This document shows, in pieces, positions 2,893 to 30,713 of a stretch of 64,000 nucleotides of DNA. Source of the DNA: an uncultured Bacilli bacterium (GTDB lineage: Bacteria > Bacillota_I > Bacilli_A > RFN20 > CAG-826). The stretch's first letter is position 1; each line of letters opens with the position of its first letter. Below the pieces are notes generated by a model, which saw nothing but the letters and a program-made list of their open reading frames with translations, was not told the DNA's origin and made no database searches. A program made the translations under genes and the position numbers. Where the stretch lies: NCBI GenBank assembly GCA_934140155.1, contig CAKPBC010000001.1, positions 32,981-96,980 of the forward strand, read 5' to 3'.

Positions 2893-4410
2893 TTATTTAT
2901 TTTTTTTAGTAAATGTTAATGTTGCCTTAGAAGAACTCAATTTATCAATTCTAATGTTATATTCTAATGTAGCGCCATTATTATATGTGAAGTCTTTTCT
3001 AAAAACATCTCCCCCAACATAAAGACTATCATTAGTAACCAAATTACCTTGCTTTAAATAATTATCACCATGCTTATCAATAATATAAACTAAAGGTATA
3101 TTGTCTTCTGAATAAGATAAAGTATTAGAATGCGCTAGTTTGCGATAATGGGGTTGCCCAGTAGAATCATATTTTTTTAGTGTTTCTGCTACTCCTTCAT
3201 CACCATCATAACCGATAAAAGGATTTTGAGCATATGTCATATAGTGACCAATACGCGCATCAACATGCATTATTTTAATTCCTGGTTTAGTCATTAAAGA
3301 AAAGTTTTTGTCTCCTGTAGTGTATTCTACTTTGCTATCATGAGCATTTAATCCTTTAGGAGAATATAATTCAATTAATAAATATTCATCCATTGCCGAT
3401 CCATTCCATGATTTAGAAGGTATCAAAATACAATCACCATTTTTATAAGAAGCATTAATAGTTATTGTTGTTTCATCTTGAATAACATAAGGCCTTGTCC
3501 AATTTAAAAGCATCTTGGAAAATGTATTTTCATCGCCTAGATTATAATCCATCATATCCATGCCACCCATTGGTTTAAATATTTGCGCAGCATCTTGAGA
3601 ATAATAATCACTTAGCCCTAACAAATGTCCTGTTTCATGAATATATGTATGAGTATCAACTTTAGCAAAATCTTCTTCACTATTCATATAATAATAACTT
3701 GCCCACAAATATGTTCTAGCTAGGTTATCATCATTTTTAAGTTCATTTGCAGTATAAGGCGGCATTGATGATTGATACGCCCATAAAGCTGTGTCTTTTT
3801 TTTGATAACGAGCCGCATAAATAAAAGCAATTCCATCAATATATTTATCGCTATCAGTGTTAAATTTAGATAAATCAACACCTTGACTCTTATAATATTT
3901 AATTGCGGATTTAGCAATTTCATTAACAATTTTTTTATCATTAAGTAAATCGTTTGTAGAATACTCACTATGATACCAATCCATTACTTCTCCACGCAAA
4001 TGCAATTTACCAAAACTAGAACTATTAAAATATGATGTAACTGAACTAAACACATTACGATTATCAACACCAAAAAAAGCATTATGGATTTTATTTTTAG
4101 CTTTGGTGCATCCACCATTTAATGTAGAGCAACTATAATCTGTAAAATCCACAGGAATAACTAATAATTGTCTTTCGCCAGTGGAAGGTATTGTGATGAT
4201 TTTTTCACTGCTTGAATATGGAAAATCTTGAAGTATTTCTTGATAATTCAAACTATATTTAGCTGGTTTATAATAACCTTCTTCTTGAATTTCTACATAT
4301 TTGTCTTTATCTTTCGAATAATTGTTAAAAGTCGATAAAGAAGATGCACTACAGCCTGATAAAAATAATACTAATCCTAAAACCAAAAAACTCTTTTTTT
4401 TCATTGTCAT
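2893..4410 (-). CDS. Secreted lipoprotein, M6-like (InhA-like) zinc metallopeptidase domain, paralog B
   Basis: Signal peptide plus lipobox (LFLSGC). HETGHLLGLSDYY zincin motif resembling the M6 HEXXHXXGXXD(E/Y)Y signature. N-terminal LVIPVDFTDY block shared with the paralog. Start chosen at MTMKKK (aggtaag RBS); the track ORF extends to 4470. Confidence 0.6.
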   Translation of the reverse strand: MTMKKKSFLVLGLVLFLSGCSASSLSTFNNYSKDKDKYVEIQEEGYYKPAKYSLNYQEILQDFPYSSSEKIITIPSTGERQLLVIPVDFTDYSCSTLNGGCTKAKNKIHNAFFGVDNRNVFSSVTSYFNSSSFGKLHLRGEVMDWYHSEYSTNDLLNDKKIVNEIAKSAIKYYKSQGVDLSKFNTDSDKYIDGIAFIYAARYQKKDTALWAYQSSMPPYTANELKNDDNLARTYLWASYYYMNSEEDFAKVDTHTYIHETGHLLGLSDYYSQDAAQIFKPMGGMDMMDYNLGDENTFSKMLLNWTRPYVIQDETTITINASYKNGDCILIPSKSWNGSAMDEYLLIELYSPKGLNAHDSKVEYTTGDKNFSLMTKPGIKIMHVDARIGHYMTYAQNPFIGYDGDEGVAETLKKYDSTGQPHYRKLAHSNTLSYSEDNIPLVYIIDKHGDNYLKQGNLVTNDSLYVGGDVFRKDFTYNNGATLEYNIRIDKLSSSKATLTFTKKNK

Positions 4411-4520
4411 CTTCTTACCTTTCATAGAAATAATTTTAACATAATTAGTGAGTAAAAAAAACCATATCATTTTAAATGATATAGTTTTTAGTAAATTTTA
4501 AAGTATTAATTTTTAGAATT

Positions 4521-6191
4521 TTAATTATTACCTGTTTTTTCAAATTTAATGGTTACACCATTCTTGTCCATTTTTTCAATAACAAATCTAAAGCCTAACT
4601 CATCGCCTTCATATCCATTTTTATCAACAGTTGGAACACCGGCTTTAGTAATAATATTTTGTCCTGTATGTAATTTGTAATTAGCGTAAGCTTTACCTTC
4701 ATAACCGAAGGAATCGCCTTCATGGAATAATGATGCATCTGTAGCGTAAGGAGTAATATATTGTCCTTTATCATTCTTTTGTTTAAATGAACATTCACCA
4801 GATGGTTCTAATAATTCAATTAATTTATATTCAGGAATTGCGCTTCTTGTAACTGAATTATCATTAGCAATATCACAATATGAGAATCTATTAGAAATAT
4901 CATCGATAAAATCAACGAAAATACCACTACTAGCAACTGTAACATTACCGCTTGCAAGGTCAAAACCAGCTAAGCGTGAGTCAACATGATATACTTTAAC
5001 ACCTGGTTTTTGGAATACTTGTGGATAAGAACCAGCAAATTGATGTTCTGAATCATATTTATTTAATCCTTCTGGTTGATAGTATTCTAATAATACATAT
5101 TCATCAAACATTGATCCACCCCAGTTAGCGTTAACAAGAATGAAATCACCTGAAGAATAGAAAGGTTTAATTGTAATTGTAGTTGAATCTCCTTTTACAG
5201 TAGAATTACTTACAACATATGGTTCAGTCCAACCATAAATCATTTTAGAATAAGCGTTATGATCACCAACGTTATTATCCATCATATCAATTCCACCTAA
5301 AGCACCATAGTCATCAATATAATTTTGTGGACCATAAGTGTAGTAGTCTGGTAGTCCCATAATGTGACCAGATTCATGAATAAATGTATGAGCATCTGGC
5401 AACCAGTCACCATTTTCATCTTTGCATTCAACATATTTTCCATCTTTAAGCATTTTGTCTTCATACATGAAGTCAACGCTAGCCCAGAAGTATGTTGATG
5501 CTACTGGTAATATATCTTTATCAGTATCAAGATTAATATCGGTATGTGAATTTGACCAGAATGTGTAAGCCCAGAACAAATCAGTTGTATCAATATTTGA
5601 GTTTGCTGGTAAAATTTGTGATCTCTTTGGAACAGTATAAATTAAATAAACAGAATCGATATATCCATCACCATTTTGATCGAAATCATCAATATCATCA
5701 TATTTACTCTTGTACCATTCAACCGCTTCATCTAGAATTCTATCAGAAATACCAGTATTATTGCCTTCCATTTGTAAAGCGTATTGTTGAGCTGATAATT
5801 CTGGTCTAAACCATTCTGTAACTTTACCACTAATATCTAATTTTCCATAACTTGACTTTTTATAGAATGATGATAAAGATTCCCAGTTTGTTTCTTCGGA
5901 TTTACCGAACATAGTTCTTCTAATATCATCTCTTAATCCATCACAGCCACCATATTTAGCAAGTTTAGTTGAACTACAAGGATAGTCAACGAATTCAACA
6001 GGAATAACTAATACTTTTTGTTTGCCAGTTGATGGTAAATCGGCTTTATGTCCTCTACTTTTACGAACTTGAGTTAATGAAGTTTTAAAGCTTGATCTTT
6101 TTACTCTACTTGGTCCTCCACAAGCAGTTAATGAAAAAGCTGTTGTAGCCACTACTGCAAGTGCAAATAAACTTTTTAAAAGTTTTTTCAT
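4521..6191 (-). CDS. Secreted lipoprotein, M6-like zinc metallopeptidase domain, paralog A
   Basis: MKKLLKSLFALAVVATTAFSLTAC lipobox. HESGHIMGLPDYY zincin motif. VLVIPVEFVDY block and overall similarity to the downstream paralog. Its own terminator hairpin lies at about 4478-4510. Confidence 0.6.
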   Translation of the reverse strand: MKKLLKSLFALAVVATTAFSLTACGGPSRVKRSSFKTSLTQVRKSRGHKADLPSTGKQKVLVIPVEFVDYPCSSTKLAKYGGCDGLRDDIRRTMFGKSEETNWESLSSFYKKSSYGKLDISGKVTEWFRPELSAQQYALQMEGNNTGISDRILDEAVEWYKSKYDDIDDFDQNGDGYIDSVYLIYTVPKRSQILPANSNIDTTDLFWAYTFWSNSHTDINLDTDKDILPVASTYFWASVDFMYEDKMLKDGKYVECKDENGDWLPDAHTFIHESGHIMGLPDYYTYGPQNYIDDYGALGGIDMMDNNVGDHNAYSKMIYGWTEPYVVSNSTVKGDSTTITIKPFYSSGDFILVNANWGGSMFDEYVLLEYYQPEGLNKYDSEHQFAGSYPQVFQKPGVKVYHVDSRLAGFDLASGNVTVASSGIFVDFIDDISNRFSYCDIANDNSVTRSAIPEYKLIELLEPSGECSFKQKNDKGQYITPYATDASLFHEGDSFGYEGKAYANYKLHTGQNIITKAGVPTVDKNGYEGDELGFRFVIEKMDKNGVTIKFEKTGNN

Positions 6192-16893: not shown

Positions 16894-18729
16894 GTAGAAA
16901 GTGAAAAGTAAACTTTTCCGCTTCCTCTCACACCACCCTACGTACGGTCTTCCGTATAGGGCGGTTTAAATAAACATTCTATGCTATCGGTTTAAGATAG
17001 TATTCAAGGGGATTTAAAAGTCCTCTTTTCTTTAGTCGCTCATTAGTTATTGGCCTTTGTATAACACACGAATGTGCAATAAATTGATAACCTCTTCTAC
17101 AATAAGTAAGTCCTTTTGCTTGCTCTTCATCAATCCCTAGTTTGACTAATGATGAAACTTGTTTTAAAGGCATTTTCCATTGTTTCCATATAACTACTCT
17201 TATTGCATTTCTTAACCATTCGCCTAAGGAGGTTAATTTGCTCTTCATACTCGATTTACGGTAATAGTTAATCCAACCTCTTAAGACTTCATTTATCTTT
17301 TTAATTCGATAAGTTAGGTCAATACTCCAAGAACGTTTCATTAATTTCTTTAATTTAAAGAATAATCTTTTGAAACTTTCTTGATGAGGCATAGGTTTCC
17401 ATTCGTTTTTATCTTTCCAAAATGAAAATCCTAAGTATTTAAGTTTACTTGGTCTTGTAATATGAGTTTTCTCGGCATTAACTTTTAATTTAAGTTTATT
17501 TTCAATAAAAGTAACAATATTCTTCATTACTCTTTCCGCTGAAAACTTTGTCTTAACAAAGATAACACAATCATCTGCATACCTTGCAAAGTGTAGTTGT
17601 CTTCTTTCTAATTCTTTATCAAGCTCGTTTAAATATATGTTACTTAATAAAGGCGAAAGGTTTCCGCCTTGTGGTGTTCCTATGTTTGTTTCTTCAAAAT
17701 GTCCATTTACCATTACACCGGCTTTTAGATATTTATGTATAATCCACGTGATATCACTATCTTTTGCTACATTATCCACTATTCGGATGAGTTTGTCTTG
17801 TGGTACATTATCAAAGAACTTCTCTAAGTCTAAGTCAATTATCCATTCATAGCCTTGATTGATTACTTCTAATGCTCTATCTATTGCATTCTGACATCTT
17901 CTATTTGGTCTAAAACCATATGAGTATTCACTGAATGTTGGCTCAAATATTGGTGTTAGTTTTTGTACTAGGGCTTGTTGAATTATTCTATCCACTACTG
18001 TTGGTATTCCTAATTTTCTTATTCCACCATTTGGCTTTGGTATTTCCACCCTTTTTACTGGAAGTGGTTGATACTTGCGACTTAAGATTTGATTGATTAA
18101 GTCATTACCGTAGATTTTTAAATATCCTTTTACTTCTTCACAAGTCATTTCATCAATTCCTGATGCGCCTTTATTTCTTATGACTTGTTTATATGCTTCA
18201 TTTAAGTTGTCTTTAGATAAGACTTCTTCAATCAACTTCATAGTTTTGCTTTTCCTCCTTTTCGTTTGTCTACAGATTATCGTTTTAGGCTTATTTTCAT
18301 AAGTTACGCTTATTACTTTTATCCGTTCGGATTATGTAGACACAATTATTTGTACTACGCAAAGGTTTATTTATTCAGTCCTTCACTTTTCAGTTACTAT
18401 GACCTCTGCTGACTTCTTGGAGTAAACCTTTTTCGACTTTGAGTTTTCTCAAATCTCCAAGACCTCACGGGGTAAGCCATATATCTTTCTAGCCTTGAGT
18501 ACTTGATTTACTATCTAACTATTACGGTCGTTTGTGATTTTAGTATGTTTGGCTACTTCATCACTAGTTAATTGCCTTATATCAAGTTTCTATTCGCTAC
18601 CCAGTCTATTTGCTACACTCTTCTTTCATCTCATACCTCACGATAACAGACTTGAGTTTCGCTATGTAGTTATAACGACTTTCCTACTTGGGACTTCCAC
18701 CCTTTAGATATATGACGTGCCCGTCACAC
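16894..18729 (-). mobile_element. Group II intron, bacterial class C (IIC)-like, about 1.84 kb, ORF in domain IV
   Basis: 5' end GUGUG at 18729 on the minus strand, immediately after a terminator hairpin plus U8. About 510 nt of GC-richer structured RNA (domains I-III). An En-less RT/maturase ORF. Domain V at about 16931-16966 with a CGC catalytic triad, 8-bp lower stem, 2-nt AC bulge and 4-bp upper stem. Domain VI hairpin with a bulged A (ggaag-cg-gaaaagu-uu-acuuuuc-A-cuuuc). The 3' boundary is approximate. Confidence 0.75.
16979..18241 (-). CDS. Group II intron-encoded reverse transcriptase/maturase (no endonuclease domain)
   Basis: 420 aa with RT blocks including FARYADDCVIF (YADD) and maturase X motif RGWINYYR. 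Ends without an HNH/En domain. Confidence 0.88.
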   Translation of the reverse strand: MKLIEEVLSKDNLNEAYKQVIRNKGASGIDEMTCEEVKGYLKIYGNDLINQILSRKYQPLPVKRVEIPKPNGGIRKLGIPTVVDRIIQQALVQKLTPIFEPTFSEYSYGFRPNRRCQNAIDRALEVINQGYEWIIDLDLEKFFDNVPQDKLIRIVDNVAKDSDITWIIHKYLKAGVMVNGHFEETNIGTPQGGNLSPLLSNIYLNELDKELERRQLHFARYADDCVIFVKTKFSAERVMKNIVTFIENKLKLKVNAEKTHITRPSKLKYLGFSFWKDKNEWKPMPHQESFKRLFFKLKKLMKRSWSIDLTYRIKKINEVLRGWINYYRKSSMKSKLTSLGEWLRNAIRVVIWKQWKMPLKQVSSLVKLGIDEEQAKGLTYCRRGYQFIAHSCVIQRPITNERLKKRGLLNPLEYYLKPIA

Positions 18730-18775: not shown

Positions 18776-20833
18776 CTAATTGTTTTGGTTATAAACAAGA
18801 GTGTTCATGGTTTTTACGCCATTAACTATGACCGATAATACACAGCCAGTGTAATAATTTTTACCATTCCAGTTGCATAGAGCCATTTCAATGGTGACAG
18901 TTTGATTATTAAACTCATCCAACCATTCATATTGATCGGCATTTGAACAATATAAACGGATTTTTGTATCACCATTTTTAACATACATATTAGAGTACTT
19001 TAGTTGTACAACTTTTTCAAAAGTTCCCTCGAATACATATACTTGTGCTGTAACGTCTTCTGTCGCTTTAATTTTAGCTAAATCCGCTAAAGTTTTGCTA
19101 CTATCAAATGATGCAGTTGAGTAATCATGTTTTCCATATAAATTTGAAACTAATTCACAGTTATCAAGGAAAATTTCGCCAACCGATTTATCTTGAACAA
19201 CTCCTAATTGCGAACGCGTTCCCTTTAATATGACTTCGTTCCCTAAACTAATAGAACTAATAGTTTCTGAAGATGCTGTAATTGCAATTGTGCCACTTTC
19301 ATCAATTAAATAAAATCCCACTTTATTCACTAATGATGGACCAGCAATACCTTTAACAGTTACAATAGAGTTAAGTTCACTATCAATAGCTTCTTTAACT
19401 GTTATAGATTCCGTAACATTTGGTAAAGTAACTGAAACATTAAATGTTTTAACAAATGTCGCATTATTTTCGTAATTAATCTTAACTGTTATCGTAGCAT
19501 TACCTACTTCATTAGTATGAAATGTTAAAGCACCTTCATCTTCGCTAAAATATGCAACTTTTTCATTACTAGAAGAATAACTAATGCTTGCGTTTTCAAA
19601 GCCTAAAAGTGATGAAGAAACGGTTACAGGAACTGCTATTTTTGGATCGCCTGTATATACATCTTCAAATAAGGTTTTAACCTTATAATCATATACGAAT
19701 TGTTCAACATTAGCTTTATCAAAAATAAATCCTTCATCTTTAACAGAAATTGGAATAAATCTCCAAAAACATCCAGATATTGTAGATTTAGCATTGATTG
19801 CTACAACTAAAACTGTACAAATCTTTCCATCAAATTCTTCAAGCCAATTCAAATCACTACCGTTACATTGTGTATAAACATAAGATCCTGTAGTTTCATC
19901 AAGATCATCAATATAATAGTTAACATATCCTTGCTTTTGAGATTTACCTATATATGCGTTTGCTTTAAAAATTTTATTTGTAATATTTTCAGTAACAGGG
20001 GTATCCATAATTTGTTTTATAGTTGTTTCTTCAACCCAGTTTATATCGATATCAGTATTACCTTCATCATTACTAACAATATGTCCTTTGGTTAATTGGC
20101 ATGATCCATTGTAACCATACTTTTCAGCAAAAGGCACTTCGTCTTCTAAAATCCAGTAGTCTTTTGTTGCCGCTAAAGTAATAGAATTGCCTTCTTCTAC
20201 TTTTAATACGGTTGATAAATCGTAAATATAAATAGAAGATGTATTATCAACAAGATAAAAGCCATTTTCTTTCTTTCCTGTCGCATATGTCTTTTTACTT
20301 ACAACACCTGACACTAAAACTTTTTTGCCTTTTTCCGCTTCTCTAGCTTTAGCAATAGTCATTTTTTCATATTCGCTAACATCAAATTGTGTACTACTAT
20401 CGACATAATCAATTAACCATGCGTTTTTTACTTCTGGTTGTCCACTATGAGTTTGAAGAGTAGCATAAATAACAATTTCATCATTTACATCTGGTTTATA
20501 TTCTAAATTTTTGTACTGGACACTTCCATCTTCACTATACGTTCCATAAATATAAATTTTACCAGTTTCGTCTTCAATTTTCATGCTTCCATAATCATAA
20601 TTGGAAACACTAGTAATTTTGCCATAAAGATAATATCTTTCTTGTGTTGGCTCACTAGCTTTAGAAGCAATTTCTAATGCTTCACTTATGTCAATACAGT
20701 TGTAACGTTCTTTCAAACTTGTTGAAGGTTGAGTAGATGCGTCACTGTTAGACGTAGATAATCCTCCTTGATCACAAGCACCAAGTGCTAACAAACAAGA
20801 AACACTTAATAGACAAAATAATTTTTTTCTCAT
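18776..20833 (-). CDS. Large surface lipoprotein with about 4 OB-fold-like repeats and an Ig-like segment; function unknown
   Basis: MRKKLFCLLSVSCLLALGAC lipobox. Repeated blocks of the (V/I)xGxVxxxxxxxxGFYLxDxTGxIxIY type. No recognizable catalytic motif. Confidence 0.5.
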   Translation of the reverse strand: MRKKLFCLLSVSCLLALGACDQGGLSTSNSDASTQPSTSLKERYNCIDISEALEIASKASEPTQERYYLYGKITSVSNYDYGSMKIEDETGKIYIYGTYSEDGSVQYKNLEYKPDVNDEIVIYATLQTHSGQPEVKNAWLIDYVDSSTQFDVSEYEKMTIAKAREAEKGKKVLVSGVVSKKTYATGKKENGFYLVDNTSSIYIYDLSTVLKVEEGNSITLAATKDYWILEDEVPFAEKYGYNGSCQLTKGHIVSNDEGNTDIDINWVEETTIKQIMDTPVTENITNKIFKANAYIGKSQKQGYVNYYIDDLDETTGSYVYTQCNGSDLNWLEEFDGKICTVLVVAINAKSTISGCFWRFIPISVKDEGFIFDKANVEQFVYDYKVKTLFEDVYTGDPKIAVPVTVSSSLLGFENASISYSSSNEKVAYFSEDEGALTFHTNEVGNATITVKINYENNATFVKTFNVSVTLPNVTESITVKEAIDSELNSIVTVKGIAGPSLVNKVGFYLIDESGTIAITASSETISSISLGNEVILKGTRSQLGVVQDKSVGEIFLDNCELVSNLYGKHDYSTASFDSSKTLADLAKIKATEDVTAQVYVFEGTFEKVVQLKYSNMYVKNGDTKIRLYCSNADQYEWLDEFNNQTVTIEMALCNWNGKNYYTGCVLSVIVNGVKTMNTLVYNQNN

Positions 20834-25895: not shown

Positions 25896-27668
25896 TTATT
25901 TTTCAGGATAACGCTCTCTTGCGTGATATGAAGTATGTAACAATTCATGGGCTTTATGACTATTTGGTTCACCTAAATAATCTTTATAAAGTTGTTGAAT
26001 TTGAGTATTACGATGAGATTGTCTTAATACTTGCTTTTCATCTTCAGAATATAGCACTTTAGCGCGTTTTTCTTTATATGTATCTAATATATTATCATCT
26101 TCATTTGGTAAGAAGCATGGCTTAACAAATGGTTGTCCTCCACCATTAATACATCCGCCTGGACATCCCATAATTTCAATAAATGTATATGGTGATTTAC
26201 CAGCACGAATATCATCTAATAATGGTTTCGCATTTTTCATGCCATGAGCAACAGCGACTTTAATTTTTGTTCCATTTAAATCAATTTCTGCTTCTTTTAA
26301 GCCATCAAAGCCACGAACTTCTTTAAATGTAATTAATTCATGTTCTTTACCAGTAACTATGAAATATGCTGTTCTTAAAGCTGCTTCCATAACGCCGCCT
26401 GTTACACCAAATATAACACCAGCGCCAGTATATTCGCCTAATAAATCTTGATCAAATTCTTCATCAGGTAATCTTCTAAAATCAATACCAGATCTTTTAA
26501 TTAATCTTGCTAATTCACGTGTAGTTAAGACACAGTCTACATCTTTTAAGCCATCTTTAGAAGCATTTTCCGGACGTTCTTTTTCATATTTTTTAGCTGT
26601 ACAAGGCATAATTGATACAACAAAGATATTTTTTGGATCTAAGCCTTTTTTCTCGGCAAAATAAGATTTAATTATTGCACCTTCCATTTCATGAGGTGAT
26701 TTACAACTTGACAAATGTCCTAATAAATCACCATAGAAATATTCTGCATAATTAACCCAACCTGGTGAACATGAGGTAATCATTGGAAGTTGTCCGCCTT
26801 CTTTAATACGATGTAATAATTCAGTAGCTTCTTCCATAATTGTTAAATCCGCCGCAAAGTTTGTATCATAAACTTTATCAAAACCCAAACGTTTTAAAGC
26901 CGCGACCATTTTGCCAGTAACAGAAGTTCCAATTGGCATACCAAATTCTTCACCTAAAGCAGCACGTACTGCTGGAGCGGTTTGTACAACAATATATTTG
27001 CCTTCTTTTTTAGCTTGGTCAATTTTATCGATTTCGCTTTTTTCCATTAATGCACCAGTAGGACAAACGTTAACACATTGTCCACATAAAATACATGGTG
27101 AGTTTTTCATTGAACGATTATAAGCAGGCGCTACAATAGTTCTAAAGCCGCGATTTTCAAAGCCTAAAATACCAATTCCTTGTGCATTTTTACATCTTTC
27201 CACACATCTTCCACATAATACACATTTTGATGTATCACGAATGATAGATGGAGTTAATTCATCAATAGTAACTGGGGTTTTACTTCCTTCATACATGTTG
27301 TCTCTAGCACCAGTAATTTTAGCAACATTTAATAATTCACAATATTCATTTTTAGTGCATTGTTGGCAGTTCTTCGAGTGATTAGATAATAGCAATTCCA
27401 CACTAGTTCTACGCGCACTAACGGCTTTTGGAGAAGAAATAATAATCTCCATTCCGTCATTAACTGGATATACACAAGACGCTACTAAACCTCTTGCACC
27501 TTTAACCTCTACTAAACAAACTCGACATGAGCCTCTAGAGCATTCACCATGATTAAAAGCACATAAAGTAGGAATTGTATATCCACATTTTTTTGCAGCT
27601 TCTAAAATAGTTAAACCAGCATCAACTTGATAAGAGTGACCTTCAATTTTAATATTTACTTTTTCCAT
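25896..27668 (-). CDS. hydA: [FeFe]-hydrogenase catalytic subunit (HydA/HndD type, M3-like domain architecture)
   Basis: N-terminal [2Fe-2S] and [4Fe-4S] domains. H-cluster motifs L2 MPCTAKKYE and L3 EIMGCPGGCINGGGQP. L1 is TSCSPGW, a variant of TSCCPxW. Start placed at MEKVNIK after the hydB stop; the track starts at a GTG at 27680. Confidence 0.85.
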   Translation of the reverse strand: MEKVNIKIEGHSYQVDAGLTILEAAKKCGYTIPTLCAFNHGECSRGSCRVCLVEVKGARGLVASCVYPVNDGMEIIISSPKAVSARRTSVELLLSNHSKNCQQCTKNEYCELLNVAKITGARDNMYEGSKTPVTIDELTPSIIRDTSKCVLCGRCVERCKNAQGIGILGFENRGFRTIVAPAYNRSMKNSPCILCGQCVNVCPTGALMEKSEIDKIDQAKKEGKYIVVQTAPAVRAALGEEFGMPIGTSVTGKMVAALKRLGFDKVYDTNFAADLTIMEEATELLHRIKEGGQLPMITSCSPGWVNYAEYFYGDLLGHLSSCKSPHEMEGAIIKSYFAEKKGLDPKNIFVVSIMPCTAKKYEKERPENASKDGLKDVDCVLTTRELARLIKRSGIDFRRLPDEEFDQDLLGEYTGAGVIFGVTGGVMEAALRTAYFIVTGKEHELITFKEVRGFDGLKEAEIDLNGTKIKVAVAHGMKNAKPLLDDIRAGKSPYTFIEIMGCPGGCINGGGQPFVKPCFLPNEDDNILDTYKEKRAKVLYSEDEKQVLRQSHRNTQIQQLYKDYLGEPNSHKAHELLHTSYHARERYPEK

Positions 27669-27679
27669 CTTTTTCACCA

Positions 27680-29545
27680 CTATTTCTTAATAATTGCTTT
27701 AAATGGACATGCACTTATACACATACCACATTTAATACATTTAGCGGAATCAATGACATATGGAGTCTTACCAATTTCACCATGAATAGCATTAACTGGA
27801 CATCCACGTGCACATTTACTACATTTCTTACAAACTTCTGGTTGAATGTAGTATTCCATAAGTTTTTTACATACTTTTGCTGGACATTTTTTATCCACTA
27901 CGTGAGCAATATATTCGTCTTTAAAATGACTCATTGTCGAAATAATTGGATTCGCGGCAGTTTGTCCTAAAGCACATAATGAGCCAGCTTGTGTCGCTCT
28001 TCCTAATTCTTCTAAGCGATTAATATCTTCGAGTGTTCCTTGGCCATTAGTAATCTTAGTTAAAATTTCTAACATTCTTTTTGTACCAATACGACATGGA
28101 GAACATTTACCACATGATTCGTCACAAATAAACTCCATATAGAATTTAGCTACGTCAACCATACAATTATCCTCATCCATGACAATTGCGCCTCCAGAGC
28201 CCATCATTGAGCCAAGAGCGACTAAATTATCAAAATCAATTGGAGTATCTAAATATTCACTAGTTAAACATCCTCCTGATGGGCCACCGGTTTGAATAGC
28301 TTTGAATTTTTTATCATTTGGGATACCGCCACCAATATCATAAATTAATTCACGAAGTGTGGTTCCCATTGGAATTTCTACTAATCCAACATTATTAATT
28401 TTTCCACCTAAGGCAAATACTTTTGTACCTTTAGACTTTTCTGTGCCATACTTAGTAAATTCTTTAACGCCTTCACGAATAATATAAGGAACACAAGCTA
28501 AAGTTTCAACGTTATTAACAATAGTTGGTTTATCCCATAATCCTTTTACAGCTGGGAAAGGAGGACGAGGGCGTGGCATTCCACGTTGTCCTTGAATTGA
28601 GTTTAATAAGGCCGTTTCTTCACCACAAACGAAGGCACCAGCTCCTAATCTTAAATGAACTCTAAATGAGAAGTTTGTTCCTAAAATATTATCGCCGAGT
28701 AATCCTAATTCTTCCGCTTCTTTAATAGCAACAGTCAAACGATGTACAGCGATTGGATATTCAGCACGAACATAGAAATAGCCATTCTTTGCTCCAATTG
28801 CGTAGCCCGCAATCATCATACCTTCAATAACCGCTAATGGATTACCTTCTAAGATTGAACGATCCATAAAGGCACCTGGGTCGCCTTCATCACCATTACA
28901 TACAACATACTTTTCTTCGCTATCTTGGTTATAGGCAAATTGCCATTTTCTTCCTGTTGGGAATCCGCCACCACCACGACCGCGTAATCCAGAAGCAAGT
29001 ATTTCATTAATTACTTCTTGTCTATCCATTTTTAAAGCACGAGCTAAGCCTTGGAAAGCGCCATAGCCTAATCCTTCATTAATATCTTCTGGATTAATAA
29101 CGCCACAACCATGTAAAGCAATTCGTACTTGTTTTTTATAGAAATTCAAGTCATCTTGTTTAGCAACTTTTTGATGGGTATGTGGATCAGTAATTAATAA
29201 ACGATCGATTACTTCTTTACCCATGATATCTTTTTCAATAATTTCTTCACAGTCTTCTACTTTAACCATATGATATAAAGTATCTTCTGGGAAAATTTTA
29301 ACAAATGGTCCTTGAGAACAGAAGCCAAAACAACCAACTTGGTTAACCGTTACTTTATCTTCTAAATTATGTTCTTTAATTAATTCTTCTAATCGATTTT
29401 TAATTTCATCAGAGTGTGAAGATAAACAGCCCGTGCCACCACAAACCACAATAGCGCGTTTTCCATTTTCTCCACTAAATTTAATATCTAAGCAGTGAGT
29501 GCATTTAGCAATTTTATCTTTTAATTCTTGCTCTGTTTTAATCAT
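27680..29545 (-). CDS. hydB: NuoF-like NAD(P)H-binding flavoprotein subunit of a bifurcating-type hydrogenase (HydB/HndC)
   Basis: 621 aa with N-terminal thioredoxin-like [2Fe-2S], FMN/NADH motif GGGGFPTGRKW, and C-terminal 2x[4Fe-4S] ferredoxin motifs. Start overlaps the hydC stop (TAATG). Confidence 0.85.
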   Translation of the reverse strand: MIKTEQELKDKIAKCTHCLDIKFSGENGKRAIVVCGGTGCLSSHSDEIKNRLEELIKEHNLEDKVTVNQVGCFGFCSQGPFVKIFPEDTLYHMVKVEDCEEIIEKDIMGKEVIDRLLITDPHTHQKVAKQDDLNFYKKQVRIALHGCGVINPEDINEGLGYGAFQGLARALKMDRQEVINEILASGLRGRGGGGFPTGRKWQFAYNQDSEEKYVVCNGDEGDPGAFMDRSILEGNPLAVIEGMMIAGYAIGAKNGYFYVRAEYPIAVHRLTVAIKEAEELGLLGDNILGTNFSFRVHLRLGAGAFVCGEETALLNSIQGQRGMPRPRPPFPAVKGLWDKPTIVNNVETLACVPYIIREGVKEFTKYGTEKSKGTKVFALGGKINNVGLVEIPMGTTLRELIYDIGGGIPNDKKFKAIQTGGPSGGCLTSEYLDTPIDFDNLVALGSMMGSGGAIVMDEDNCMVDVAKFYMEFICDESCGKCSPCRIGTKRMLEILTKITNGQGTLEDINRLEELGRATQAGSLCALGQTAANPIISTMSHFKDEYIAHVVDKKCPAKVCKKLMEYYIQPEVCKKCSKCARGCPVNAIHGEIGKTPYVIDSAKCIKCGMCISACPFKAIIKK

Positions 29546-30033
29546 TATGCTTCTCCTCCTAACTTACGATATTCATTGATTACTTGTTGTACTTGATTAA
29601 CTGACATCTTAGGATATACTTTTCCATTAATGCTTACTGCTGGGGCAATACCACATGCTCCAATGCAACGTAAGGCATCAATAGTAAATAATCCATCTTC
29701 CGTTGTTTCTCCAGGTTTAATACCTAAAAGTTCGGAAAACTTGTCACATATTTGTTGTGCACCTTTAACGTAACATGCAGTTCCTAAACAAACTCCAATA
29801 ACAAATTTGCCTTTAGGTTTCAAAGAAAAAAATGAGTAAAAAGTAACTACACCATATATTTCTGAAACAGGTATACCTAATTTTTCAGATACGATTTCTT
29901 GAACTTCAAAAGGAATATAGCCATATTCTTTTTGAACCTGGCTCAAGATCATCATTAATGGTGTATTTTCGTTCTTATACTCAGCGATGATTTCTTCAAC
30001 CCTTTTGCAAGCGGCTGAACTCAATTTTGCCAT
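29545..30033 (-). CDS. hydC: NuoE-like [2Fe-2S] subunit (HydC/HndA)
   Basis: 162 aa with Cys motifs CLGTAC...CIGACGIAP; first gene of the hyd operon. Confidence 0.8.
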   Translation of the reverse strand: MAKLSSAACKRVEEIIAEYKNENTPLMMILSQVQKEYGYIPFEVQEIVSEKLGIPVSEIYGVVTFYSFFSLKPKGKFVIGVCLGTACYVKGAQQICDKFSELLGIKPGETTEDGLFTIDALRCIGACGIAPAVSINGKVYPKMSVNQVQQVINEYRKLGGEA

Positions 30034-30260: not shown

Positions 30261-30713
30261 TTAATTTAATATAGCAATACTTATATTTAAAAATGTTGCA
30301 AAAGACAACCAAATAACATATGGAATCCATAAATACGCTAAGTTCTTATTGGTTTTAAATAAATAAATTAGCATATAAATGCATAATCCTAATAATATTA
30401 CAATATCTATTGCGCTCACCAATGATAAATGTAAACCAAAAAATAAAGGAGTCCATAAGACATTAAATAATAATTGAATATAAAATATTTTACTTCCTTT
30501 AACATCCGTTAGTTCATCTAATTTATAACTAACATATCCAATCATTAAATATAATATTGACCAAATAATCGGAAATAAAATCGATGGCACACGAACTAAA
30601 CTATTCAAATTACTATAATAAGAAGAAAAATCCCCTAAAAGCATAGAAATAACAAAATTTACTAATAATGGAAAAAGCAAATTAAAAACTAAATCAATAT
30701 TTATTTTTTTCAT
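30261..30713 (-). CDS. TspO/MBR (tryptophan-rich sensory protein) family membrane protein
   Basis: 150 aa with about 5 TM helices and conserved TspO blocks (NVLWTPLFF; WIPYVIWLSFATFLN). Confidence 0.55.
   Translation of the reverse strand: MKKINIDLVFNLLFPLLVNFVISMLLGDFSSYYSNLNSLVRVPSILFPIIWSILYLMIGYVSYKLDELTDVKGSKIFYIQLLFNVLWTPLFFGLHLSLVSAIDIVILLGLCIYMLIYLFKTNKNLAYLWIPYVIWLSFATFLNISIAILN

What the first reader, a model, noticed from the sequence alone, without database searches (positions are those of the whole stretch)
26703..26777. [FeFe]-hydrogenase with H-cluster motif L1 = TSCSPGW instead of TSCCPxW (plus Ala-to-Cys in the downstream LSSCKSP block)
Read directly from DNA: tca tgt tca cca ggt tgg on the minus strand. 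In prototypical and bifurcating group A enzymes the two adjacent Cys are the proton-relay Cys (CpI C299) and a [4Fe-4S]H ligand (C300). Here only one Cys is present in an otherwise perfectly conserved context (PMITSCSPGWVNY vs [13 protein letters not shown]). About 20 residues later a Cys replaces the Ala of LSSAKSP. Motifs L2 (MPCTAKKYE) and L3 (EIMGCPGGCINGGGQP) are canonical. The gene sits in a classic NuoE/NuoF/HydA bifurcating-type operon. This may indicate altered proton transfer or cluster ligation, for example a sensory-like or slow variant, in an otherwise standard HydABC context.
Basis: partly seen in the sequence, partly recalled or inferred. Interest (0 to 1): 0.6.

Follow-up and report, generated by a model that had tools for sequence, protein, structure and literature searches.

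The report
Common serine variant of hydrogenase motif
The hydrogenase gene really does read TSCSPGW instead of TSCCPxW, but this serine-for-cysteine change is a common natural variant, already described and seen in the solved structure of an active enzyme, so the finding is ordinary.

Summary
Observation confirmed. The minus-strand hydA gene (25896..27668) encodes PMITSCSPGW...HLSSCKSP, with canonical L2 and L3 motifs, in a hydC-hydB-hydA operon.

Interpretation mostly not supported.
- The retained Cys aligns with the proton-relay Cys (CpI C299). The Ser sits at the [4Fe-4S]H ligand position (CpI C300). All proton-pathway residues are conserved.
- The best solved-structure match for all three subunits is the active electron-bifurcating HydABC of Acetobacterium woodii. 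Its HydA1 has the same TSCSPGW and LSSCKSP. The cryo-EM paper reports Ser301 in place of the Cys ligand and a normal H-cluster infrared signature.
- Kertess et al. 2017 already stated that Ser occupies this position in about 20% of sequences.
- The "Ala-to-Cys" change is not special. Cys is the majority residue there (55%) and occurs in canonical enzymes (CrHydA1, HDCR HydA2).
- Four independent assemblies (about 94% nucleotide identity) keep the TCA codon, so this is not an assembly error.
- The protein passes NCBIfam's curated model for NADH-dependent [FeFe] hydrogenase group A6.

Residual curiosity: an engineered Ser at this site kills CrHydA1. Natural Ser variants carry co-varying neighbours (Ile296, Gly302, Ile496, Gly498).

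The parts
25896..27668 (-). hydA: catalytic subunit of a trimeric group A [FeFe]-hydrogenase, 590 aa from the ATG at 27668 (the ORF finder extends it to a GTG at 27680)
   Evidence: Pfam Fe_hyd_lg_C 8.9e-102, Fe_hyd_SSU, Fer2_4, NADH-G_4Fe-4S_3 and Fer4 domains. NCBIfam NF040763 FeFe_hydrog_A6 scores 857.6 bits against a cut-off of 765. Best PDB hit is A. woodii HydA1 7q4v_A, E 1.9e-193.
26757..26777 (-). L1 motif TSCSPGW. Cys300 (26769..26771) corresponds to the proton-relay Cys (CpI C299). Ser301 (26766..26768) sits at the [4Fe-4S]H ligand position (CpI C300, A. woodii Ser301).
   Evidence: Ungapped alignment to CpI, T. kivui and A. woodii HydA. PMC10021017 states that Ser301Aw replaces ligand Cys299Tk.
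26694..26714 (-). LSSCKSP block. Ser320 corresponds to proton-pathway S319 of CpI. Cys322 (26703..26705) is at the CpI A321 position.
   Evidence: Cys is the majority residue at this column (83 of 150 representatives). It is also Cys in CrHydA1 and HDCR HydA2.
26805..26837 (-). MEEATELLHRI: carries the conserved proton-pathway residues equivalent to CpI E279, E282 and R286
   Evidence: sequence, alignment to CpI, and column counts E 135, E 139, R 135 of 150.
26583..26609 (-). L2 motif MPCTAKKYE (Cys356 = CpI C355 ligand; M354 and K359 conserved)
26130..26177 (-). L3 motif EIMGCPGGCINGGGQP (Cys502 and Cys506 = CpI C499 and C503). Ile499 and Gly501 are the variants that co-vary with Ser301.
27680..29545 (-). 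hydB: NuoF-like flavoprotein subunit with an N-terminal [2Fe-2S] thioredoxin-like domain and a C-terminal 2x[4Fe-4S] ferredoxin domain (bifurcating-type architecture)
   Evidence: Pfam Complex1_51K, NADH_4Fe-4S, 2Fe-2S_thioredx and Fer4 at residues 566-618. Best PDB hit is A. woodii HydB 7q4v_B, E 5.3e-245, near full length.
29545..30033 (-). hydC: NuoE-like [2Fe-2S] subunit
   Evidence: Pfam 2Fe-2S_thioredx 3.6e-51. Best PDB hit is A. woodii HydC 7q4v_C, E 4.6e-50.

Best explanation
This is an ordinary, presumably fully active catalytic subunit (HydA) of a trimeric, flavin-based electron-bifurcating-type HydABC [FeFe]-hydrogenase from an Erysipelotrichales bacterium. It carries the common natural 'Ser300' version of H-cluster motif L1. 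The first Cys of TSCSP is the proton-relay Cys next to the bridging amine. The Ser replaces one of the four Cys ligands of the [4Fe-4S] part of the H-cluster and most likely ligates iron through its oxygen, as modelled in the A. woodii HydABC cryo-EM structure. The Cys in LSSCKSP is the usual family residue at that position and is not a new feature. Shown here: sequence, alignment, frequency, relation to A. woodii, and conservation of the proton pathway. Inferred: Ser-O ligation and activity in this particular protein.
For: - Ungapped alignment places Cys300/Ser301 on CpI C299/C300 and on A. woodii Cys300/Ser301.
- PMC10021017 reports that Ser301Aw replaces the Cys ligand, with no apparent influence on the FTIR signature, in an active bidirectional enzyme.
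- HydA, HydB and HydC all have A. woodii HydABC as their best solved-structure match.
- The protein passes NCBIfam FeFe_hydrog_A6 above its curated cut-off.
- PMC5855289 says Ser occupies this position in about 20% of sequences. My own count is 27 of 150 representatives, scattered over at least 17 state changes on a rough tree.
- Proton-pathway residues and M353, K358 and M497 equivalents are conserved.
- Cys at the A321 position occurs in 55% of representatives and in the canonical enzymes CrHydA1 and HDCR HydA2.
Against: - No biochemical data exist for this protein.
- Ser-O ligation rests on a 3.4 A cryo-EM model of a relative at roughly 50% identity.
- Engineered C115S (the equivalent position) in CrHydA1 loses the cluster and all activity, so Ser is not tolerated in every context.
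- No hydE, hydF or hydG maturase turned up among the ORFs I annotated (about 30 of the 45 ORFs of at least 150 aa); the window was not searched exhaustively.
- My AlphaFold model was poor (mean pLDDT 59.8), so I have no structural check of my own.
Confidence: 0.85

Rival explanations
1. Ligand swap: in Ser300-type enzymes the fourth ligand of the [4Fe-4S]H cubane is really the Cys of LSSCKSP (Cys322), and Ser301 is a bystander.
For: Cys at the 321 position is enriched among Ser300 sequences. It is 21 of 27 against 60 of 119 among representatives (odds ratio 3.4, p = 0.01, not corrected for phylogeny), and 89 of 98 in the genome scan. The A. woodii map is only 3.4 A, and the paper's main text does not mention Cys322.
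Against: About 10-20% of Ser300 enzymes have Ala or Ser at 321 with L2 and L3 otherwise intact. Cys321 is the majority state even when all four canonical Cys are present. CrHydA1 natively has this Cys, yet its C115S variant loses the cluster. The published model assigns Ser301 as the residue replacing the ligand. Geometry could not be checked here because no coordinates were accessible.
Confidence: 0.08
2. Functionally divergent enzyme: sensory-like, slow, or with altered proton transfer.
For: Only the deviation from the textbook TSCCP motif. Engineered Cys-to-Ser exchanges at cubane ligands change bias and rates in CrHydA1.
Against: The relay Cys and the E279, E282, R286 and S319 equivalents are all conserved. 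There is no PAS or other sensory domain. The gene sits in a HydABC operon whose three subunits match the active A. woodii complex. A. woodii HydABC with the same motif shows catalytic activities and infrared signatures similar to T. kivui HydABC, which has TSCCP.
Confidence: 0.04
3. Sequencing or assembly error (tgt tgc misread as tgt tca).
For: None.
Against: The same TCA codon is present in four independent assemblies at about 94% nucleotide identity. The motif is present in 115 of the 120 closest database relatives (Cys300, Ser301 and Cys322 are invariant).
Confidence: 0.01

Closest known systems
Acetobacterium woodii electron-bifurcating hydrogenase HydABC(D), HydA1 (PDB 7Q4V, 7Q4W, 8A5E; Katsyv et al. 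2023, PMC10021017)
   Same: Identical L1 variant TSCSPGW and identical LSSCKSP block. Same residue numbers (Cys300, Ser301, Cys322). Same domain architecture. HydB and HydC are also the best PDB matches (E 1.9e-193, 5.3e-245 and 4.6e-50).
   Different: A different organism (Erysipelotrichales rather than Eubacteriales), with roughly half of the residues identical. No HydD-like fourth subunit is evident in the operon. This protein has not been studied biochemically.
Thermoanaerobacter kivui HydABC (PDB 8A6T) and Thermotoga maritima HydABC (PDB 7P5H)
   Same: Same trimeric HydABC type and the same M3-type HydA architecture (E 8.4e-177 and 1.5e-125).
   Different: T. kivui HydA has the canonical TSCCPSW and ISTARSP, that is, a Cys ligand and Ala at the 321 position.
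   Same: Same fold and accessory-cluster domains. All proton-pathway and H-cluster pocket residues align without gaps around L1.
   Different: CpI is monomeric, with TSCCPGW and LSSAKSP. Its Ala321 is a minority state in the family (29 of 150).
CrHydA1 C115S engineered variant (Kertess et al. 2017, PMC5855289)
   Same: Ser at the same ligand position, and Cys already present at the 321-equivalent position (VSSCKSP).
   Different: The engineered variant has low [4Fe-4S] occupancy, no [2Fe] insertion and no activity. Natural Ser300 enzymes differ at neighbouring positions: Ile rather than Phe at 296, Gly302, Ile496 and Gly498.

Membership tests
Group A (prototypical/bifurcating) [FeFe]-hydrogenase catalytic subunit | H-domain with large- and small-subunit regions (Pfam Fe_hyd_lg_C + Fe_hyd_SSU; TIGR02512) | tested here: met
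   PF02906 8.9e-102 and PF02256 2.4e-23. TIGR02512 scores 547 bits against a cut-off of 406.
Group A (prototypical/bifurcating) [FeFe]-hydrogenase catalytic subunit | H-cluster motifs L1 TSCCPxW, L2 MPCxxKxxE, L3 ExMxCxxGCxxG with four Cys ligands | tested here: inconclusive
   L2 and L3 are canonical. L1 has Ser at the ligand position, so the textbook four-Cys rule is not met literally. However, about 18-20% of family members, including active A. woodii HydA1, share this state.
Group A (prototypical/bifurcating) [FeFe]-hydrogenase catalytic subunit | Conserved proton-transfer pathway (CpI C299, E279, S319, E282, R286) | tested here: met
   All five are conserved in the ungapped alignment to CpI and in column statistics.
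Trimeric electron-bifurcating HydABC (Greening group A3; NCBIfam 'group A6') | hydA co-operonic with NuoF-like hydB and NuoE-like hydC | tested here: met
   hydC 29545..30033, hydB 27680..29545 and hydA 25896..27668 are adjacent on one strand; hydC's stop overlaps hydB's start, and hydB is followed within 12 bases by the likely hydA ATG. The same synteny is seen in independent assemblies.
Trimeric electron-bifurcating HydABC (Greening group A3; NCBIfam 'group A6') | HydB carries the extra N-terminal [2Fe-2S] and C-terminal 2x[4Fe-4S] domains | tested here: met
   2Fe-2S_thioredx at residues 27-105 and Fer4 domains at 566-618. The match to A. woodii HydB is near full length (7-598 of 599). That these domains distinguish bifurcating from non-bifurcating HydB is from my recollection of Losey et al. 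2020 (PMC7311640), which appeared in the list but was not opened.
Trimeric electron-bifurcating HydABC (Greening group A3; NCBIfam 'group A6') | Curated family model score above cut-off | tested here: met
   NF040763 scores 857.6 bits against a cut-off of 765.
Trimeric electron-bifurcating HydABC (Greening group A3; NCBIfam 'group A6') | NAD(P)H- and ferredoxin-coupled (bifurcating/confurcating) H2 turnover | not testable with these tools
   Requires enzyme assays.
Sensory [FeFe]-hydrogenase HydS (groups C/D) | C-terminal PAS or other signalling domain, with a non-conserved proton pathway and pocket residues | tested here: not met
   No PAS or signalling domain among the Pfam hits. The proton pathway and the M353, K358 and M497 equivalents are conserved.
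Group B [FeFe]-hydrogenase (TSCCCP type) | Three adjacent Cys in L1 | tested here: not met
   L1 is TSCSPGW. TIGR04105 FeFe_hydrog_B1 scores 185 bits, far below its cut-off of 450.

The most novel reading that the evidence does not exclude
Natural Ser300-type HydA enzymes (about one fifth of the family) use a co-adapted cubane pocket (Ile296, Gly302, Ile496, Gly498 and usually Cys321). This pocket either allows Ser-O ligation or lets Cys321 take over as the fourth ligand. Either way it would shift the [4Fe-4S]H potential or bias in a physiologically meaningful manner. It would also explain why the single C115S exchange fails in CrHydA1.
Probability: 0.12. Interest if true: 0.45.

Novelty: already known. 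Interest (0 to 1): 0.1.

Why it matters
It matters little as a discovery. The serine variant of L1 is documented in the literature (about 20% of sequences, per Kertess et al. 2017 citing Winkler et al. 2013). It is also present in a structurally and spectroscopically characterised active enzyme, A. woodii HydABC.

The useful outcome is a correction. The textbook motif should be read as TSC[CS]PxW, and CpI's LSSAKSP is not the family norm.

A modest open question remains. Natural Ser300 enzymes work, yet the engineered Ser at the same site destroys CrHydA1. The co-varying neighbours listed here give a testable set of compensatory changes.

Tried and rejected
- **Structure prediction.** I ran AlphaFold2 to measure which Cys or Ser could reach the cubane. 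Only close relatives (80% identity or more) were allowed in the alignment, so the model was poor (mean pLDDT 59.8, H-domain loops below 50). No coordinates are exposed to scripts, so no distances could be measured.
- **Cys322 as a compensatory ligand.** I rejected it as the main explanation because Cys is the majority residue regardless of the L1 state, Ser300 with Ala321 exists, and CrHydA1 (which has that Cys) does not tolerate C115S.
- **Biopython NJ tree.** It timed out. I replaced it with UPGMA on p-distances plus Fitch counts. That tree is rough, so the number of independent origins (at least 17) is only indicative.
- **Literature searches.** Searches for 'TSCSP' and 'serine ligand' found only the Melainabacteria paper and the A. 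woodii structure paper. A call to search the A. woodii paper's supplement failed on a term-length rule and I did not repeat it.
- **Organism name.** No species name was obtained. Cluster look-up gave only 'Erysipelotrichaceae/Erysipelotrichales bacterium' for relatives at 86-88% identity.

Full report
**Observation.** The reverse complement of window 26694..26777 translates to TSCSPGWVNYAEYFYGDLLGHLSSCKSP. The surrounding ORF (25896..27680, minus strand) encodes a 590-aa protein if started at the ATG at 27668. That is the length of essentially all database relatives. In this numbering the residues of interest are Cys300, Ser301 and Cys322. L2 (MPCTAKKYE, 26583..26609) and L3 (EIMGCPGGCINGGGQP, 26130..26177) are canonical.

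**Gene and neighbours.**
- Pfam finds Fer2_4, NADH-G_4Fe-4S_3, two Fer4 regions, Fe_hyd_lg_C (8.9e-102) and Fe_hyd_SSU in HydA.
- The upstream gene (27680..29545) has the Nuo51 FMN domain, the NuoF [4Fe-4S] region, an N-terminal thioredoxin-like [2Fe-2S] domain and a C-terminal 2x[4Fe-4S] ferredoxin domain.
- The gene before it (29545..30033) is NuoE-like.
- NCBIfam's curated model NF040763, 'NADH-dependent [FeFe] hydrogenase, group A6', scores 857.6 bits against a cut-off of 765.
- Against solved structures, all three proteins have the A. woodii HydABC complex as best match: HydA1 7q4v_A at 1.9e-193, HydB 7q4v_B at 5.3e-245, HydC 7q4v_C at 4.6e-50.
- Relatives at 86-88% identity are labelled Erysipelotrichales or Erysipelotrichaceae.
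- The same TspO-hydC-hydB-hydA-cysS-mgtC synteny recurs in independent metagenome assemblies.

**Which cysteine is missing.** The HMMER alignments have no gaps around L1.
- CpI reads [33 protein letters not shown]. Counting from the printed coordinates gives C299, C300, S319 and A321.
- The query's Cys aligns with C299 (the proton relay), its Ser with C300 (the [4Fe-4S]H ligand), and its later Cys with A321.
- The proton-pathway residues E279, E282, R286 and S319 are all present in the query (MEEATELLHRI...LSS). They are conserved in 135-139 of 150 diverse representatives.
- So proton transfer is not the affected feature. The cluster ligand position is.

**This is a known state.** A. woodii HydA1 reads PMITSCSPGWIKF...HLSSCKSPQ in the same alignment, identical to the window in both blocks.
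- The cryo-EM paper on HydABC (Katsyv et al. 2023, PMC10021017) states that in the A. woodii enzyme one Cys ligand of the A1 cluster (Cys299 in T. kivui) is replaced by Ser301.
[quoted passage not shown] The anaerobic A. woodii map is at 3.4 A.
- Kertess et al. 2017 (PMC5855289) wrote that sequence alignments show serine at this position in about 20% of sequences, citing Winkler et al. 2013.
- A 2013 metagenomics paper also remarked on TSCSPGW in Melainabacteria hydrogenases.

**My own frequency estimates agree.**
- A full HMMER search of 1.84 billion cluster representatives returned the 150 best relatives at 50% or less mutual identity. After alignment, the C300 column holds Cys 119, Ser 27, Thr 1 and Ala 1, so Ser is 18%.
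- On a rough UPGMA tree the Ser state needs at least 17 changes. It is scattered across the family, not one odd clade.
Of these, 98 are genuine hydrogenase contexts, from Clostridia, Bacteroidales, Spirochaetes, Elusimicrobia, Ignavibacteria, Omnitrophota, Caldisericota, Cloacimonetes, Erysipelotrichaceae and others. The rest are out-of-frame chance hits in high-GC genomes.

**The 'Ala-to-Cys' change.** At the A321 column the representatives have Cys 83, Ala 29, Thr 16, Ser 9 and Val 6. CpI's Ala is therefore the minority state.
- Cys is present together with canonical TSCCP in CrHydA1 (MFTSCCPGW...VSSCKSP, PDB 2n0s).
- It is also present in HDCR HydA2 of T. kivui (TSCCPAW...ISTCKSP, PDB 7qv7_D).
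- There is some enrichment of Cys321 among Ser300 sequences: 21 of 27 against 60 of 119 (Fisher odds ratio 3.4, p = 0.01, not phylogeny-corrected), and 89 of 98 in the genome scan.
- However, Ser300 with Ala321 exists (8 loci, for example L007, L030, L047, L068, L078, L080, L104 and L119).

**A residual puzzle.** In CrHydA1 the ligand equivalent to CpI C300 is C115 in the numbering of Kertess et al. PDB 2n0s shows C114-C115 in TSCC, and the spacings 115/170/362/366 match CpI 300/355/499/503.
- C115S (and C115A, C115D) gave pale protein, 40-60% or lower [4Fe-4S] occupancy, no [2Fe] insertion and no measurable H2 evolution. The authors found this surprising given the natural serine.
- CrHydA1 has the Cys321 equivalent, so that Cys is not sufficient to rescue a Ser at 300.
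- I scanned every alignment column for association with Ser versus Cys at 300. The strongest partners are immediate neighbours of the cubane ligands, listed below.

| Position (CpI numbering) | Ser300 set (n = 23) | Cys300 set (n = 109) | p |
|---|---|---|---|
| 296 | Phe in 4; mostly Ile or Leu | Phe in 84 | 1e-7 |
| 302 | Gly in 21 | Gly in 39 | 9e-7 |
| 496 | Ile in 10, Val in 4 | Val in 78 | 2e-6 |
| 498 | Gly in 7 | Gly in 0 | 2e-6 |

- The window protein has all four Ser-associated states (PMI-TSCSPG-W and E-I-M-G-C).
- In the genome scan, Ile296 occurs in 67 of 98 loci, and EIMGC or EIMAC in 58 of the 85 loci where L3 was in range.
- These statistics are not corrected for shared ancestry. 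The idea that they form a compensatory pocket is an inference.

**Artefact check.** Four independent assemblies carrying a 98%-identical protein (about 94% nucleotide identity over the gene) have the same ACC TCA TGT TCA CCA GGT TGG. They differ at synonymous sites in the LSSCKSP block. Cys300, Ser301 and Cys322 are invariant in a 25-sequence alignment of relatives at 80-89% identity.

**What could not be done.** The AlphaFold2 model built from the permitted shallow alignment was poor (mean pLDDT 59.8). Coordinates are not exposed. I therefore could not measure whether Cys322 can reach the cubane. That remains the one open structural point, and it can be answered from the deposited A. woodii coordinates.

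**Verdict.** The sensory, slow and proton-transfer readings are not supported. Interest is low.

Noticed in passing
window 16979..18241 (-): A 420-aa ORF matches group II intron reverse transcriptase/maturase (TIGR04416, 421 bits against a cut-off of 300). It lies between the rplA/rplJ ribosomal-protein genes and the nusG region, so a mobile intron is inserted in a core gene cluster. Intron RNA boundaries were not mapped.
   Followed up: partly
window 18776..20833 (-): A 685-aa ORF with a lipoprotein-like N-terminus (MRKKLFCLLSVSCLLALGAC) has no NCBIfam match at all. It sits between the intron ORF and nusG.
   Followed up: partly
window 30261..30713 (-): A TspO/MBR-family membrane protein lies immediately upstream of hydC. 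The TspO-hydCBA-cysS-mgtC order is conserved in independent assemblies. Whether TspO is co-transcribed with the hydrogenase is unknown.
   Followed up: partly
window 2893..6191 (-): Two tandem paralogous ORFs (525 and 556 aa) carry an M6-family metalloprotease domain (TIGR03296); the second just clears the model's cut-off (111.1 against 110.8 bits) and the first does not (83.8).
   Followed up: no
P0121 (representative library): A 4122-aa predicted protein has seven separate stretches matching the hydrogenase query (2173 bits). It is either a giant multi-H-domain protein or a mis-assembly or mis-call.
   Followed up: no
P0181, P0124, P0193, P0209 (representatives): A few HydA-like representatives also lack the proton-relay Cys. 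P0181 reads ISSSSPAW with LSSCKSP, and others have Asn, Ala or Tyr at the C299 position together with Ser at C300. These, unlike the window protein, could be truly non-canonical or non-catalytic.
   Followed up: no
The partners are Ile/Leu instead of Phe at 296, Gly302, Ile496 and Gly498. The test was not phylogeny-corrected.
   Followed up: partly
window 27668..27680 (-): The ORF finder starts hydA at a GTG that overlaps the hydB stop (594 aa). All database relatives are 589-590 aa and start at the ATG at 27668.
   Followed up: yes
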